The notes under the pieces were generated by a model. That model was not told the origin of the DNA and searched no databases. It saw only the letters and a list, made by a program, of their open reading frames with translations. A stretch of DNA of 64,000 nt from an uncultured Pseudomonadota bacterium. Lineage in GTDB: Bacteria > UBA10199 > JACPAL01 > GCA-016699445. The translations under genes and the position numbers were made by a program. Shown piece after piece: positions 6,815 to 12,309 of this stretch. Each line of letters starts with the position of its first letter. Position 1 is the stretch's first letter. The stretch covers positions 262,500 through 326,499 of the forward strand of contig CAZKQW010000001.1 in the NCBI GenBank assembly GCA_964555055.1, in the 5' to 3' direction.

Positions 6815-7615
6815 TTGCAGTGCATTATGCATCCCGTCCTCGTGAGCATCCCTCTCTTTGGAGGCATCAAAATATATACCTACGGCCTTATGTATGCCTT
6901 AGCGGCCCTGACTTCGATTTATGTCAGCGTCCGCTTGGGTCGAAAAGAAGGCTACTCCGCCGACCGAATCATGGACTTATCTTTCTATCTCATCATCGGA
7001 AACCTCATCGGAGCCCGCGTTCTCTATGTCATCACCGACTGGCAACGCTTCGCGGACTATCCGCTGGATGTTTTTAAGATCTGGGAAGGAGGTCTCGTCT
7101 TTTTTGGCGGACTCTTAGGGGCCATTGCGATGGCGCTCTATCTCATCCCTCGCTATAAAATGGATTTCCTAAAGACGGCTGATTTTTATATGCCGGGACT
7201 GGCCTTCGGGCATGCCATCGGGCGGCTGGGCTGTTTCGCTTCGGGGTGTTGCCATGGAAAACCCATGCCGGATTTCCCATTGTCCATTACCTTCCCAAGC
7301 CAACCCTATACGCTGGCACCCACGGGTATTCCCCTTTTCCCGTCCCAACTGGCCGAATCCCTGAGCCTCTTTCTCGTCGGCGGACTCCTTCTACTTCTCT
7401 GGAAGCGAAAGCGTTTCGACGGCCAGGTCTTCCTGGTATATTTGATCCTCTACAGCATTATACGCAGCGTGTTGGAGATCTTCCGCGGCGACAGCATCCG
7501 CGGGTTCCTCATCGATCCTTGGCTTTCGACTTCGCAATTCATCAGTCTCTGTTTGATCATCATGGCTCTTGTGGTCTATAAGCGTCTTTCCCGGAAGAAA
7601 TCGGAGCTCTTATGA
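6815..7615 (+). CDS. lgt: prolipoprotein diacylglyceryl transferase (paralog 1)
   Basis: Polytopic membrane protein with Lgt signature segments: YGLMYALAALTSIY, GARVLYVI, GGLVFFGGLLGAIAM, GHAIGRLGCFASGCCHGKP. Overlaps the next gene by ATGA. Confidence 0.85.
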   Translation: MQCIMHPVLVSIPLFGGIKIYTYGLMYALAALTSIYVSVRLGRKEGYSADRIMDLSFYLIIGNLIGARVLYVITDWQRFADYPLDVFKIWEGGLVFFGGLLGAIAMALYLIPRYKMDFLKTADFYMPGLAFGHAIGRLGCFASGCCHGKPMPDFPLSITFPSQPYTLAPTGIPLFPSQLAESLSLFLVGGLLLLLWKRKRFDGQVFLVYLILYSIIRSVLEIFRGDSIRGFLIDPWLSTSQFISLCLIIMALVVYKRLSRKKSELL

Positions 7616-8121
7616 AAAGAAACATCGCCTTTCTCTTAGCCCTCGGCGCATTCGCCTTAACGACGGGTTTCTTGACGTCATGCAATAAAGCGATCGTGCA
7701 TTCTAAAGACAAGGAGTTCCCTCCCCTGTCCAAAACCTTCTCTTCGACGCCTAAAGAAACCTTCGAAGCCGCTCAAAAGGTTTTGGAACGCGAGGGCTTC
7801 AAGATCGCCCGCGCCGACGACGATGCCGGGCTGATACAAACCAATTGGATCAGCACGAAAGCCGCCTCCCATTACCTCGAACTCTTCGGCAAAAAAGATT
7901 ATGGCACCGTCGGGGCCTATTACCGGATCACGGTCAAGATGGAGGAGAAAGAGAATAAGTCGAAGGTGGACGTGTTCACAACGACCCGCTCCATCATCAC
8001 AGGGCGGCTCCATTCGGCTTACAGCGAGGAAAGGAAATTCCTCTCCAAAATGACCGATTATCTCCGTAAAGACGATTTTGAGATTACGAACGTGGGCGTG
8101 GATGAGAAGGAAGGACGATGA
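7612..8121 (+). CDS. lipoprotein (signal peptide + lipobox LTSC), unknown function
   Basis: N-terminus MKRNIAFLLALGAFALTTGFLTSC fits a type II signal peptide with lipobox cysteine. Start overlaps the lgt stop (ATGA) and the stop overlaps the ileS start (ATGA). Confidence 0.6.
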   Translation: MKRNIAFLLALGAFALTTGFLTSCNKAIVHSKDKEFPPLSKTFSSTPKETFEAAQKVLEREGFKIARADDDAGLIQTNWISTKAASHYLELFGKKDYGTVGAYYRITVKMEEKENKSKVDVFTTTRSIITGRLHSAYSEERKFLSKMTDYLRKDDFEITNVGVDEKEGR

Positions 8122-10958: not shown

Positions 10959-11518
10959 GAGATCTTTTGAAAAAATGGCCCCTCGTCTTAGGACTTGCCA
11001 CGGTGGTTTTCGTCTTGGATCAAATCACGAAGCATTGGATCGTCCAAAACGTGCCTCGGGAGGTCTTCTTCCCCGTCATTCCAGGGATTTTCGACATCGT
11101 CCATACGCGCAATAAAGGCGCGGCATTCGGTTTCATGTCGGAAATGCCCGAGCATATCCGGATGCCTTTCTTTTTCATCAGTTCCATTCTCGCGTTGGTC
11201 GGCATGATCTATTATTTTTCTAAAGCCTATCCGGAAGAAACCCTGGTCACGGTGAGTTTAGGTCTCATTTTAGGCGGCGCCTTAGGGAATATTTACGATC
11301 GCATCACCTTGGGCGAAGTGGTTGATTTTCTATCCTTTCATTATTACGACCAATGGGCGGACTTTTCTCTTTTCGGTCTTTCCGTTTCCTTCCGACTGGA
11401 ATGGCCCGCTTTCAACGTGGCGGATTCCGCTATTTGCGTGGCCATCGGCCTGTTGCTTTTTTTCATGCTCTTCAGGGCCGAGCCCGCGAAAACCAAAAAA
11501 GGAGTCGTTCTCCCATGA
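10955..11518 (+). CDS. lspA: lipoprotein signal peptidase II
   Basis: Starts at the ATG overlapping the ileS stop (ATGA at 10955-10958). Typical LspA segments: LVLGLATVVFVLDQITKHWIV, HTRNKGAAFGF, NVADSAICVAIGLLLF. ileS-lspA is a conserved gene pair. Confidence 0.88.
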   Translation: MRDLLKKWPLVLGLATVVFVLDQITKHWIVQNVPREVFFPVIPGIFDIVHTRNKGAAFGFMSEMPEHIRMPFFFISSILALVGMIYYFSKAYPEETLVTVSLGLILGGALGNIYDRITLGEVVDFLSFHYYDQWADFSLFGLSVSFRLEWPAFNVADSAICVAIGLLLFFMLFRAEPAKTKKGVVLP

Positions 11519-12309
11519 TGCCATTTCTCTTTTCCATCGGAGGAACGAAAGTCCCCTCCTTCTTTTTCTTCATCATGGTCGCGACCTTGGCATGCACCTT
11601 TTACCTCTTCTTCAATGCCAAGCGCGAAGGCCTACAACAAGAAGCCATGTTGGATATGGGGATTCTTGGAATGATCGTCGGCGTCTTAGGCGCCCGAATC
11701 TTTCACATACTCGTCGAGGCCCCCGCTTATTATTGGGCGAAACCGACGCGCGTGTTCGAGTTTTGGCGCGGCGGCTTCGTGTCCTGGGGCGCCTTTCTCG
11801 CCCTAGCGATCTCGTTACCCATTTATTTCAGGGTCCGGAAGCTTCCTATCTTGGAATATTTCGATTTCTTTGCGACCGGGGCGCCTTTAATCAAATTCTT
11901 TGTGCGGTTCGCCTGTCTCTTGACGGGTTGTTGCTACGGGAAACCCAGCGATCTGCCGTGGGCCATTACATTTACCGACCCGGCGTCGACGGCCTACTAT
12001 TACTATCCCAACATTCCCCTACAGCCCACTCAAATCTATTCCATGATCCACGCAACGCTGCTTTTTTTCTTCATGAGATGGTTCTACAAGACGCATAAAC
12101 AATACCCGGGAGAGAGCATCTGCGTCTTAGTCATCGCATGGTCACTCCCAAGGGCTTTCATCGAATTTTTCCGGGGAGATGCGGATCGGGGGCTGTATTT
12201 CGGAGGCCATGTGTCGACAGGCCAAATCACGGGCATGGTCGTTTCCATCGTAGCCCTTATTCTCTACCGGTACCTTCATGGACGCTACGCGAAAAAGACT
12301 CAGAGTTGA
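11515..12309 (+). CDS. lgt: prolipoprotein diacylglyceryl transferase (paralog 2)
   Basis: Begins MMPFLFSIGG at the ATG overlapping the lspA stop; the track ORF from 11353 is an upstream in-frame extension. Lgt segments: GILGMIVGVLGARIFHIL, FWRGGFVSWGAFLA, CLLTGCCYGKPSDLPWAITF. Confidence 0.85.
   Translation: MMPFLFSIGGTKVPSFFFFIMVATLACTFYLFFNAKREGLQQEAMLDMGILGMIVGVLGARIFHILVEAPAYYWAKPTRVFEFWRGGFVSWGAFLALAISLPIYFRVRKLPILEYFDFFATGAPLIKFFVRFACLLTGCCYGKPSDLPWAITFTDPASTAYYYYPNIPLQPTQIYSMIHATLLFFFMRWFYKTHKQYPGESICVLVIAWSLPRAFIEFFRGDADRGLYFGGHVSTGQITGMVVSIVALILYRYLHGRYAKKTQS

What the first reader, a model, noticed from the sequence alone, without database searches (positions are those of the whole stretch)
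6815..12309. Two lgt paralogs bracket an ATGA-chained lgt-lipoprotein-ileS-lspA-lgt operon
Five consecutive genes are joined by 4-nt ATGA overlaps (7612, 8118, 10955, 11515). This makes a lipoprotein-maturation module (Lgt, LspA, plus a cargo lipoprotein) around the conserved ileS-lspA pair. A second, clearly divergent Lgt copy follows: both copies keep the GCCHGKP / GCCYGKP active-site region but differ elsewhere. Duplicated Lgt is uncommon. The paralog may be specialised for a lipoprotein subset, e.g. the Cys-rich 980-aa lipoprotein or the coupled 169-aa lipoprotein.
Basis: seen in the sequence. Interest (0 to 1): 0.5.

Follow-up and report, generated by a model that had tools for sequence, protein, structure and literature searches.

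The report
Lgt paralog coupled to myxosortase-like protease
The window holds a conserved operon in which a second, altered copy of the lipoprotein-lipidating enzyme Lgt sits directly before a myxosortase-type membrane protease, which makes this copy a testable candidate for the still-unidentified enzyme that lipidates C-terminal cysteine sorting signals.

Summary
lgt1, a 169-aa lipoprotein gene, ileS, lspA and lgt2 are joined by four ATGA start/stop overlaps, and the two Lgt proteins are 30% identical.

A sixth gene (12278..12955) overlaps lgt2 by 32 nt. It encodes a CPBP/Rce1-type glutamic intramembrane protease that passes NCBIfam's myxosortase-core cutoff (102.3 vs 100).

In about 100 related loci from uncultured "Deltaproteobacteria"/UBA10199-type MAGs, the order lspA–lgt2–CPBP is nearly invariant:
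- CPBP-anchored loci: 52/52.
- Lgt2-anchored loci: 38/41.

lgt1 and its lipoprotein gene form a separate unit that can lie elsewhere in the genome.

Lgt1 keeps the canonical Lgt motif. The Lgt2 clade keeps the Arg/Glu catalytic network but has fixed Y26F, M100F, F102S and G142V/I. Y26F and G142V/I inactivate E. coli Lgt.

Three related loci encode secreted proteins with MYXO-CTERM-like tails (GGC, linker, TM helix, Arg/Lys). One of these genes lies directly downstream of the CPBP gene.

Best reading (about 0.45): Lgt2 lipidates the C-terminal Cys and the CPBP removes the anchor helix. No such substrate was seen in the window or in its closest relatives.

The parts
6827..7615 (+). lgt1: canonical prolipoprotein diacylglyceryl transferase (262 aa; an alternative TTG start lies at 6815)
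   Evidence: Pfam LGT 1.3e-58. TIGR00544 149.6 bits against a cutoff of 118.9. It keeps Y26, G104, G142, R143, G145, G154, Y235, R239, E243 and R246, with the known variants N146C, E151C and H103F.
7612..8121 (+). 169-aa lipoprotein (lipobox LTSC, Cys24), weakly NlpB/BamC-like; the fixed downstream partner of lgt1
   Evidence: Pfam PF06804 29.2 bits against a cutoff of 25, with partial coverage. Orthologues follow lgt1 in every locus that has lgt1, and nearly all carry a signal peptide ending in Cys-x-K-P. The pair stays together when it is unlinked from ileS.
8118..10958 (+). ileS, isoleucine-tRNA ligase (946 aa)
   Evidence: TIGR00392 936.8 bits against a cutoff of 621.4.
10955..11518 (+). 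lspA, lipoprotein signal peptidase II (187 aa)
   Evidence: Pfam Peptidase_A8 9.8e-41. TIGR00077 120 bits against a cutoff of 73.95. The NIYDR and FNVADS motifs are visible in the translation.
11515..12309 (+). lgt2: divergent Lgt paralog (264 aa) of a separate, conserved clade
   Evidence: Pfam LGT 1.1e-49, but TIGR00544 90.5 bits is below the 118.9 cutoff. The window protein has F26, F100, S102, W103, A105, V142, A145 and W235, while R143, G154, R239, E243, R246 and D129 are kept. AF2 model pLDDT 86; Foldseek finds only 5AZB (E 2e-9, TM 0.77).
12278..12955 (+). CPBP/Rce1-like glutamic intramembrane protease of the myxosortase family (225 aa); overlaps lgt2 by 32 nt
13096..13725 (+). rluA-type pseudouridine synthase, the next gene on the same strand; follows the CPBP gene only in the closer relatives, so it is probably not part of the functional unit
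   Evidence: Pfam PseudoU_synth_2 1.8e-31. Gene call of 209 aa. Present downstream in L003, L009-L013, L015 and L089-L103, and absent in most other loci.
6700..6826 (+). Intergenic region upstream of lgt1; the only sizeable gap before the chain and the likely promoter region
   Evidence: Two sigma-70-like matches at 6753-6780 and 6789-6816, but the number of matches in the region is not above that in shuffled sequence.

Best explanation
The region is a six-gene, translationally coupled operon that joins two conserved units.

Unit 1 is lgt1 plus a small BamC-like lipoprotein gene. Lgt1 is the canonical housekeeping diacylglyceryl transferase. Together with LspA here and with Lnt and LolCDE elsewhere in the window, it runs the normal N-terminal lipoprotein pathway.

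Unit 2 is (ileS-)lspA-lgt2-CPBP. Lgt2 is an old, vertically inherited paralog. It keeps the catalytic Arg/Glu network but has remodelled the first phosphatidylglycerol site and the HGGL peptide-binding edge. Its fixed downstream partner is a catalytically intact myxosortase-family CPBP protease.

Proposed mechanism (inferred): secreted proteins carrying a C-terminal tripartite signal (Gly-Gly-Cys, a linker of about 11-14 residues, a TM helix and an Arg/Lys cluster) are held in the inner membrane by that helix. Lgt2 transfers a diacylglyceryl group, or a related lipid, to the Cys thiol. The CPBP, like Rce1 on prenylated CAAX substrates, then cuts just after the lipidated Cys and releases the helix. 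The protein is left lipid-anchored at its C-terminus. This would mirror the Lgt1-then-LspA sequence at the N-terminus.

Shown here: gene content, the overlaps, the two Lgt clades with their residue signatures, the near-invariant synteny, myxosortase-core membership, and the presence of such tails in some related genomes.

Inferred: the substrate of Lgt2, the order of the two steps, and the lipid.
For: 1. Synteny. The CPBP gene lies directly downstream of an Lgt2-type gene in 52/52 CPBP-anchored genome loci and in 38/41 Lgt2-anchored metagenome loci. Overlaps of 4 to 32 nt recur between the two genes.

2. Protease family. The CPBP reaches the curated myxosortase-core cutoff in the window (102.3) and in three relatives (107-115). 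It has all CPBP catalytic motifs and an Rce1 fold.

3. Open question in the literature. The enzyme that lipidates the invariant Cys before myxosortase cleavage is explicitly unknown. An 'Lgt-like acyl-transferase' is predicted, and Lgt is called the leading candidate (bioRxiv 10.1101/2023.06.07.544157 and PMC11980579).

4. Lgt2 residues. The clade fixes F26, F100, S102 and V/I142 (112/113, 120/120, 119/120, 117/120), while R143, R239, E243 and R246 are 120/120. Lgt1 keeps Y26, L100, F102 and G142. Y26 and M100 contact PG in the first lipid site. F102, H103 and the HGGL motif form the proposed lipobox-binding edge. Y26F and G142A/I/V abolish complementation in E. coli (PMC4728403). Together these suggest the same chemistry with a different substrate.

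5. Both paralogs persist when unlinked. Assembly CAZKUY01 has lgt1 plus the lipoprotein gene on contig 2, and ileS-lspA-lgt2-CPBP on contig 20.

6. Candidate substrates. There are four in module-bearing relatives, all with signal peptides and typical sorted-protein domains (choice-of-anchor D, delta-60 repeat, myxo_disulf_rpt). All end in [GA]GC[STA], a linker, a TM helix and a basic cluster. One lies 106 nt downstream of the CPBP gene in L061. They were the only proteins with a signal peptide, a single C-terminal TM helix and no recognised polytopic family found in those lineages.
Against: - No such tail was found in the 64-kb window, in 10 kb beyond its left end, or in about 0.6 Mb of flanks from its closest relatives. 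The four candidates come from three loci of sublineages that lack an adjacent lgt1.
- lspA is linked to lgt2 as tightly as the CPBP gene is (45/47 and 46/46). The synteny alone does not separate an N-terminal role from a C-terminal one.
- MrtX processes a MYXO-CTERM tail in E. coli, which has only canonical Lgt (PMC11980579). A dedicated paralog is therefore not required in principle.
- More distant myxosortase-core loci (Myxococcota-like, L067-L088) have no lgt or lspA within 8 kb.
- The Mrt_core score in the window is only 2 bits above the cutoff.
- A small sublineage (L059, L065, L066, L070) keeps Y26 and G142 in the CPBP-adjacent copy.
- No biochemical data exist for any member.
Confidence: 0.45

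Rival explanations
1. Lgt2 is a second N-terminal lipoprotein transferase specialised for a subset of ordinary lipobox proteins. The CPBP protease is functionally unrelated, or only loosely related.
For: Lgt2 keeps the catalytic Arg/Glu network and the Lgt fold. It always follows lspA. Paralogous Lgts with overlapping N-terminal roles are known in Streptomyces, mycobacteria and the B. cereus group. The window's lineage shows no C-terminal Cys tails in the DNA sampled.
Against: The specific cargoes proposed do not fit. The 169-aa lipoprotein gene travels with lgt1, not lgt2, and the 980-aa lipoprotein is not linked in relatives. This reading also leaves unexplained why a myxosortase-core protease is coupled to lgt2, often by overlapping codons, in about 90 independent loci.
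Confidence: 0.22
2. Lgt2 is a catalytically dead or regulatory pseudo-enzyme. It would act as a membrane scaffold or substrate-presenting partner for the CPBP protease or for LspA, as the CPBP protein SpdC partners SagB.
For: The window Lgt2 carries Y26F, G142V, G145A and Y235W. Mutations at each of these positions, including Y26F and G142V exactly, abolish E. coli Lgt function (PMC4728403). Its TIGR00544 score is below the cutoff. The best structural match of the CPBP model is SpdC, a CPBP protein that works as a partner subunit.
Against: R143, R239, E243, R246, D129 and G154 are invariant in 120/120 Lgt2 relatives, which is not expected for a non-catalytic scaffold. Lgt1 itself also departs from the E. 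coli 'essential' residues N146 and E151 (both Cys), so E. coli mutagenesis does not transfer directly. The CPBP here keeps all of its own catalytic residues, unlike SpdC.
Confidence: 0.1
3. Lgt2 acts on the same proteins as Lgt1 but uses a different lipid donor, yielding a second lipoprotein form. The CPBP is an accessory that, for example, clears the signal peptides released by LspA.
For: The clade-specific changes (Y26F, M100F, F102S) lie in residues that hydrogen-bond or line the phosphatidylglycerol sites in 5AZB/5AZC (PMC4728403). The lspA-lgt2-CPBP linkage would fit a shared N-terminal pathway.
Against: No CPBP is known to degrade signal peptides. The protease matches the myxosortase core specifically, and matches other CPBP subfamilies less well. 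The tail-bearing proteins next to the module in L046, L051 and L061 would be unexplained.
Confidence: 0.1
4. The gene order is a frozen historical accident in one lineage, with no functional link between Lgt2 and the CPBP protease.
For: All loci come from one broad uncultured lineage, so the roughly 100 loci are not independent origins. ileS-lspA is an ancient conserved pair to which neighbours can accrete.
Against: The flanks, ileS and the lgt1 unit all come and go while lspA-lgt2-CPBP stays, over sequence divergence down to about 35-45% identity. Start/stop overlaps between lgt2 and the CPBP gene recur.
Confidence: 0.08

Closest known systems
Myxosortase / MYXO-CTERM sorting system (MrtX, MrtC, MrtP; Haft 2023 preprint, Sah et al. 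mBio 2025)
   Same: The window's protease is a CPBP glutamic intramembrane protease with the myxosortase core (NF040914 passed) and an Rce1 fold. Related genomes encode secreted proteins with a Cys motif, a TM helix and an Arg-rich C-terminal tail, carrying typical passenger domains (delta-60, choice-of-anchor D, myxo cysteine-rich repeat). One target gene is adjacent to the protease gene, as in the MrtJ/JDVT-CTERM pairs.
   Different: The protease reaches none of the subtype cutoffs (MrtP, MrtC, MrtX, MrtZ, MrtS, MrtJ). The tails do not reach the MYXO-CTERM HMM; their motif is GGC[STA] followed by a linker of 11-14 residues. Uniquely, the protease gene is fused into an operon with lspA and a dedicated Lgt paralog, whereas no transferase partner is known for the published systems. 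The host is an uncultured UBA10199-type lineage.
Canonical Lgt-LspA-Lnt lipoprotein pathway (E. coli Lgt, PDB 5AZB/5AZC)
   Same: Both copies belong to PF01790, and the Lgt2 model matches 5AZB. Lgt1 carries the 13-residue Lgt motif in its known 'CC' variant. LspA, Lnt, LolCDE and BamA are all in the window.
   Different: Lgt2 deviates at Y26, G142, G145 and Y235, and at the arm-2/HGGL edge (F100, S102, W103, A105). It also fails the TIGR00544 equivalog cutoff. The proposed substrate has its TM helix C-terminal to the Cys, which is the inverted topology.
Known duplicated Lgts (Streptomyces coelicolor Lgt1/Lgt2, M. smegmatis MSMEG_3222/MSMEG_5408, plasmid lgt of the B. cereus group)
   Same: There are two lgt genes in one genome. 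One copy is canonical and one diverges at motif positions (MSMEG_5408 has Y26H and N146C).
   Different: The known cases are not described as linked to a CPBP protease or to lspA. Here the divergent copy forms a deep clade with its own conserved signature and a fixed three-gene context.
Eukaryotic/archaeal CAAX processing (prenyltransferase, then Rce1)
   Same: The logic is the same: a transferase lipidates a Cys near the C-terminus, and a CPBP protease then cuts just after the lipidated Cys.
   Different: The lipid would come from an Lgt-type diacylglyceryl transferase on the periplasmic side, not from a cytosolic prenyltransferase. The removed piece is a TM helix plus a basic tail, not three residues.

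Membership tests
Lgt (prolipoprotein diacylglyceryl transferase, PF01790 / TIGR00544) | Match to the family HMMs above the curated cutoffs | tested here: met
   Lgt1: Pfam 198.6 bits (cutoff 24.9) and TIGR00544 149.6 bits (cutoff 118.9). Lgt2: Pfam 169.3 bits is met, but TIGR00544 90.5 bits is below 118.9, so Lgt2 is a family member but not an equivalog.
Lgt (prolipoprotein diacylglyceryl transferase, PF01790 / TIGR00544) | 13-residue Lgt motif: Y26 H103 G104 G142 R143 G145 N146 E151 G154 Y235 R239 E243 R246 (bioRxiv 10.1101/2025.03.27.645668) | tested here: not met
   This verdict is for Lgt2, which has F26, V142, A145 and W235 in the window. Across the clade, F26 and V/I142 are nearly universal. 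Lgt1 meets the motif with the documented variants H103F and N146C/E151C.
Lgt (prolipoprotein diacylglyceryl transferase, PF01790 / TIGR00544) | Seven-TM Lgt fold | tested here: met
   Lgt2 AF2 model: pLDDT 86.3, pTM 0.83. The only significant Foldseek PDB hit is 5AZB (E 2.1e-9, TM 0.77). Lgt1 was not modelled.
Lgt (prolipoprotein diacylglyceryl transferase, PF01790 / TIGR00544) | Transfer of diacylglycerol from phosphatidylglycerol to a lipobox Cys | not testable with these tools
   Needs complementation of an E. coli lgt depletion strain, or an in vitro assay with each copy.
Myxosortase family (NCBIfam NF040914 Mrt_core; CPBP/Rce1-like PF02517) | Myxosortase core HMM at or above the curated cutoff of 100 bits | tested here: met
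   Window 102.3 (marginal). Orthologues in L061, L046 and L034 score 107.4, 114.7 and 111.8.
Myxosortase family (NCBIfam NF040914 Mrt_core; CPBP/Rce1-like PF02517) | Membership of a named subtype (MrtP, MrtC, MrtX, MrtZ, MrtS, MrtJ) | tested here: not met
   Best score is MrtP at 141.3 bits against a cutoff of 250. MrtC scores 108.2 against 195, and MrtX 80.6 against 180. The same holds in relatives. This is therefore a new subtype.
Myxosortase family (NCBIfam NF040914 Mrt_core; CPBP/Rce1-like PF02517) | CPBP catalytic motifs EExxxR, FxxxH and HxxxN, and an Rce1-like fold | tested here: met
Myxosortase family (NCBIfam NF040914 Mrt_core; CPBP/Rce1-like PF02517) | [quoted passage not shown] | tested here: inconclusive
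   Four such proteins were found in three module-bearing relatives (L046, L051, L061). None was found in the window, in 10 kb beyond it, or in flanks of its closest relatives. Whole genomes could not be read.
MYXO-CTERM sorting domain (TIGR03901) | HMM match of the candidate substrate tails | tested here: not met
   The L046, L051 and L061 tails give no TIGR03901 hit; one gives 12.1 bits to Synerg-CTERM (cutoff 22.5). A control protein in L069 with a GCGC tail scores 17.2 bits (cutoff 20). The architecture is the same, but the motif is a variant.
LspA (signal peptidase II, TIGR00077) | Equivalog HMM above the cutoff | tested here: met
   120 bits against a cutoff of 73.95; Pfam Peptidase_A8 9.8e-41.
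BamC/NlpB (PF06804) for the 169-aa lipoprotein | HMM above the gathering score, with coverage of the domain | tested here: inconclusive
   29.2 bits against a cutoff of 25, but only profile positions 82-155 of 323 are matched. There is no PDB sequence match. The lipobox and signal peptide are conserved in orthologues.

The most novel reading that the evidence does not exclude
Lgt2 is the founding member of a class of Lgt-family enzymes dedicated to lipidating a cysteine in C-terminal sorting signals, working as an obligate pair with a myxosortase-type protease. If so, bacteria would have a C-terminal counterpart of the Lgt/LspA lipoprotein pathway. The long-sought 'myxosortase acyl-transferase' would then be an Lgt-family enzyme in general: a dedicated paralog here, and perhaps the housekeeping Lgt in Myxococcus.
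Probability: 0.35. Interest if true: 0.85.

Novelty: new variant of a known kind. Interest (0 to 1): 0.65.

Why it matters
Two recent papers on myxosortases state that the enzyme which lipidates the invariant Cys of MYXO-CTERM-type signals is unknown. They name Lgt only as a candidate, inferred from a heterologous experiment.

This operon adds independent comparative-genomic support. In about 100 loci an Lgt paralog is encoded directly before, and usually overlapping, a myxosortase-core protease gene. Its substitutions sit exactly in the lipid-entry and peptide-binding parts of the Lgt structure.

That gives experimenters a defined two-gene cassette and candidate tails to reconstitute in E. 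coli. It also provides a natural 'specificity-swap' pair (Lgt1 and Lgt2) for working out how Lgt recognises its protein substrate. That question bears on Lgt as an antibiotic target.

Tried and rejected
- **Alternative CPBP start.** TTG 12306 would give a fifth NTGA junction, but it is out of frame with the ORF. ATG 12278 is supported by orthologue N-termini.
- **Promoter and terminator scan, 6500-14300.** Counts are no higher than in shuffled sequence, and there is no convincing internal terminator.
- **Scans for substrates.** Scans for Cys-TM-basic C-terminal tails were negative in the window, in 0.5 Mb of Lgt2-anchored metagenome loci, and in 10 kb left of the window. The small ORF 13748..14167 has such a tail but no signal peptide, so it was not counted.
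- **Look-up on the right edge.** The 1231-aa protein at the right edge of the window was not on record.
- **Lgt1 homologue search.** It returned only same-lineage orthologues. No outgroup other than E. coli Lgt was available for rooting.
- **First tree attempt.** The Biopython version timed out and was replaced by a numpy neighbour-joining tree.
- **Literature searches.** No prior description of an Lgt-CPBP or Lgt-myxosortase gene pairing was found in the held library.

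
Full report
**Observation**

The + strand between 6815 and 12309 carries five ORFs. All four junctions read ATGA, with the stop of one gene overlapping the start of the next, at 7612, 8118, 10955 and 11515. Independent gene calls on the same DNA in a public assembly give identical boundaries: 262, 169, 946, 187 and 264 aa.

Pfam and NCBIfam identify the products as follows:
- Lgt
- a 169-aa lipoprotein with lipobox LTSC and a weak NlpB/BamC hit
- IleS
- LspA
- a second Lgt

The two Lgts are 30% identical.
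- lgt1 most likely starts at ATG 6827.
- ATGA overlaps are frequent in this genome, with nine in the window.
- A second lgt is not rare in bacteria; about 10% of RefSeq genomes have one.
- The chain does not stop at 12309.

**The sixth gene**

An ORF at 12278..12955 overlaps lgt2 by 32 nt. It encodes a 225-aa CPBP/Rce1-like protein. In NCBIfam it passes the curated cutoff of the myxosortase core model NF040914 (102.3 against 100). It stays below the cutoffs of the named subtypes MrtP, MrtC and MrtX.

**Synteny**

Context look-ups for Lgt2 and CPBP homologues showed the same six genes, or ileS-lspA-lgt2-CPBP, with changing flanks.

Two scans tested the linkage from both sides.
- A CPBP-anchored scan of one genome per species gave 80 loci. 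Every locus that holds an Lgt2-type gene has the CPBP gene directly downstream (52/52) and lspA directly upstream (46/46).
- An Lgt2-anchored scan of metagenome contigs gave 55 loci. The CPBP gene follows in 38 of 41 evaluable loci and lspA precedes in 45 of 47.

The three exceptions were:
- L128, where a MarC-family gene is inserted between lgt2 and the CPBP gene.
- L106, where a thiL-like gene follows.
- L140, where the Lgt is of ambiguous type.

ileS is sometimes absent (L017, L035, L043, L108). The lgt1-plus-lipoprotein pair is present in only about half of the genome loci.

In assembly CAZKUY01, lgt1 plus the lipoprotein gene lies on contig 2 next to nuo genes. On contig 20 lies ileS-lspA-lgt2-CPBP. 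L147 shows the same detached lgt1-lipoprotein pair.

There are thus two units, and the window happens to have them fused. More distant myxosortase-core proteins (Myxococcota-like and others, L067-L088) have no lgt or lspA nearby. All hosts are uncultured MAGs labelled Deltaproteobacteria, Pseudomonadota or 'bacterium'. Some isolates are named UBA10199.

**The two Lgt clades**

A neighbour-joining tree of 81 locus-derived Lgts, with E. coli as outgroup, separates Lgt1 (bootstrap 168/200) from Lgt2 (199/200). Mean identity is about 0.5 within each clade and 0.29 between them. The internal groupings are broadly parallel in the two clades. This indicates an old duplication that was inherited vertically.

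Residue signatures in 120 database relatives of each copy:

| Position (E. coli numbering) | Lgt1 relatives | Lgt2 relatives |
|---|---|---|
| 26 | Y 119/119 | F 112/113 |
| 100 | L 118/120 | F 120/120 |
| 102 | F 118/120 | S 119/120 |
| 142 | G 120/120 | V/I 117/120 |
| 235 | Y 119/119 | W 60, Y 58 of 120 |
| R143, R239, E243, R246, G154 | kept | kept in all 120 |

Both clades carry the known N146C/E151C variant, and in Lgt1 position 103 is Y or F. The window's Lgt2 additionally has W103, A105, A145 and W235.

In the E. coli structure paper (PMC4728403):
- The Y26 hydroxyl and the M100 backbone bind the sn-2 ester of phosphatidylglycerol in the first lipid site.
- F102 lines the second glycerol pocket.
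- The H103-GGL edge is proposed to bind the lipobox peptide.
- Y26A/F/Q, G142A/I/V, G145A/I/V and Y235F/L/S do not complement.

A 2025 preprint assigns protein-substrate specificity to arm-2 residues together with H103.

Lgt2 therefore looks like an enzyme with the catalytic network intact and the substrate-facing parts changed. It does not look like a decaying copy. Its AF2 model (pLDDT 86) matches only 5AZB in the PDB.

**Link to an open question**

The myxosortase papers state that MYXO-CTERM-type signals (a Cys motif, a TM helix and an Arg cluster) are probably lipidated on the Cys by a separate, unidentified enzyme before the CPBP protease cuts. They draw an 'Lgt-like acyl-transferase' in their model and call Lgt the leading candidate, because MrtX works in E. 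coli. I found no paper in the held library that describes an lgt gene paired with a CPBP or myxosortase gene.

**Candidate substrates**

I scanned all ORFs of the loci for a signal peptide, a single C-terminal TM helix and a basic end. In module-bearing lineages the scan returned four proteins outside the polytopic families:

| Locus and coordinates | Size | Passenger domains |
|---|---|---|
| L046:6603-8159 | 482 aa | YVTN propeller plus choice-of-anchor D |
| L051:9849-11309 | 482 aa | YVTN propeller plus choice-of-anchor D |
| L061:8760-10574 | 595 aa | delta-60 repeats plus DUF11 |
| L061:2081-3094 | 333 aa | myxo cysteine-rich repeat |

The L061:8760-10574 gene starts 106 nt after the CPBP gene.

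All four end in [GA]GC[STA], then 11-14 residues, then a TM helix and an Arg/Lys cluster. They do not reach the MYXO-CTERM HMM. The architecture and the Cys-to-helix distance resemble the TraA tail quoted in PMC11980579. The Gly at position -1 is what a lipobox also has (my own observation).

A classical GCGC MYXO-CTERM protein turned up in L069, a locus with a distant myxosortase and no lgt. This serves as a positive control for the scan.

No such protein is present in the window, in 10 kb to its left, or in the flanks of its closest relatives.

**Interpretation**

The best-supported reading is that Lgt1, with LspA and with Lnt and LolCDE (which lie at 36116..37747 and 27238..30377 in the window), runs the ordinary N-terminal pathway. 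Lgt2 and the CPBP would form a C-terminal counterpart: Lgt2 lipidates the tail Cys, and the protease then removes the helix. I give this about 0.45.

The main weaknesses are:
- No substrates have been demonstrated in the window's own sublineage.
- lspA is linked just as tightly as the CPBP gene.
- E. coli's ordinary Lgt seems sufficient for MrtX processing.

The rivals are a second N-terminal Lgt with a different client set (0.22), a pseudo-enzyme partner (0.10), an altered lipid donor (0.10) and frozen synteny (0.08).

The 169-aa lipoprotein gene belongs with lgt1, and the 980-aa lipoprotein is unlinked in relatives.

**Verdict**

This is a real, conserved feature. Its gene content is ordinary, but it includes an undescribed and strongly conserved pairing of an Lgt paralog with a myxosortase-family protease. 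It is a new variant of a known kind, and it makes an explicitly open question directly testable.

Noticed in passing
window 24916..37747 (- strand): This stretch holds much of the rest of the lipoprotein and outer-membrane machinery: BamA (24916..27222), LolD/LolC/LolE-like genes (27238..30377), lysS, a 980-aa Cys-rich lipoprotein with lipobox LGFLGC and no Pfam match (31959..34901), and Lnt (36116..37747). The organism therefore has the full canonical triacylation and Lol pathway.
   Followed up: partly
window 13748..14167 (+): A small ORF just after rluA ends in ...AVSCVGLTGLCVAFWAVQAYTTATDGKTDGSRR (Cys, hydrophobic stretch, basic end) but has no signal peptide. The public gene call there is only 100 aa. 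It is probably a tail-anchored small protein, or not a gene at all.
   Followed up: partly
window 3391..5109 and 5134..6699 (+): Two large proteins (572 and 521 aa) with no Pfam family lie directly upstream of lgt1. A Pfam-less ORF of 545-549 aa occupies the same position in L003 and L006.
   Followed up: no
L007/L016 5419-7008 and L031 4310-5893: One sublineage has two tandem Lgt2-type genes (both F26/V142) between lspA and the CPBP gene, and no adjacent lgt1. The extra copy branches inside the Lgt2 clade, so it is a lineage-specific tandem duplication.
   Followed up: partly
L059, L065, L066, L070 (CPBP-adjacent lgt): In this sublineage the CPBP-adjacent Lgt keeps Y26 and G142 (with W103) while still clustering in the Lgt2 clade. 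It is either a reversion or an early-branching state, and would be useful for dating the specificity change.
   Followed up: no
L144 5012-7303 and L147 5012-7292: Where lgt1 is detached from ileS, it is preceded by two conserved Pfam-less genes of about 160 aa and followed by the lipoprotein gene. The group lies next to PilZ and nuoA/B/C genes.
   Followed up: partly
L009 (CP064976.1) 2567-3366 and 3836-6684: In the closest complete genome, lgt1 and ileS each appear as two overlapping ORF pieces. These are most likely frameshift errors of the assembly rather than pseudogenes.
   Followed up: no
L129 35-7118: The contig carries lgt2-CPBP followed by lspA-ileS-lipoprotein-lgt1 on the opposite strand. 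This looks like an inverted or chimeric assembly of the same operon (compare L130).
   Followed up: no
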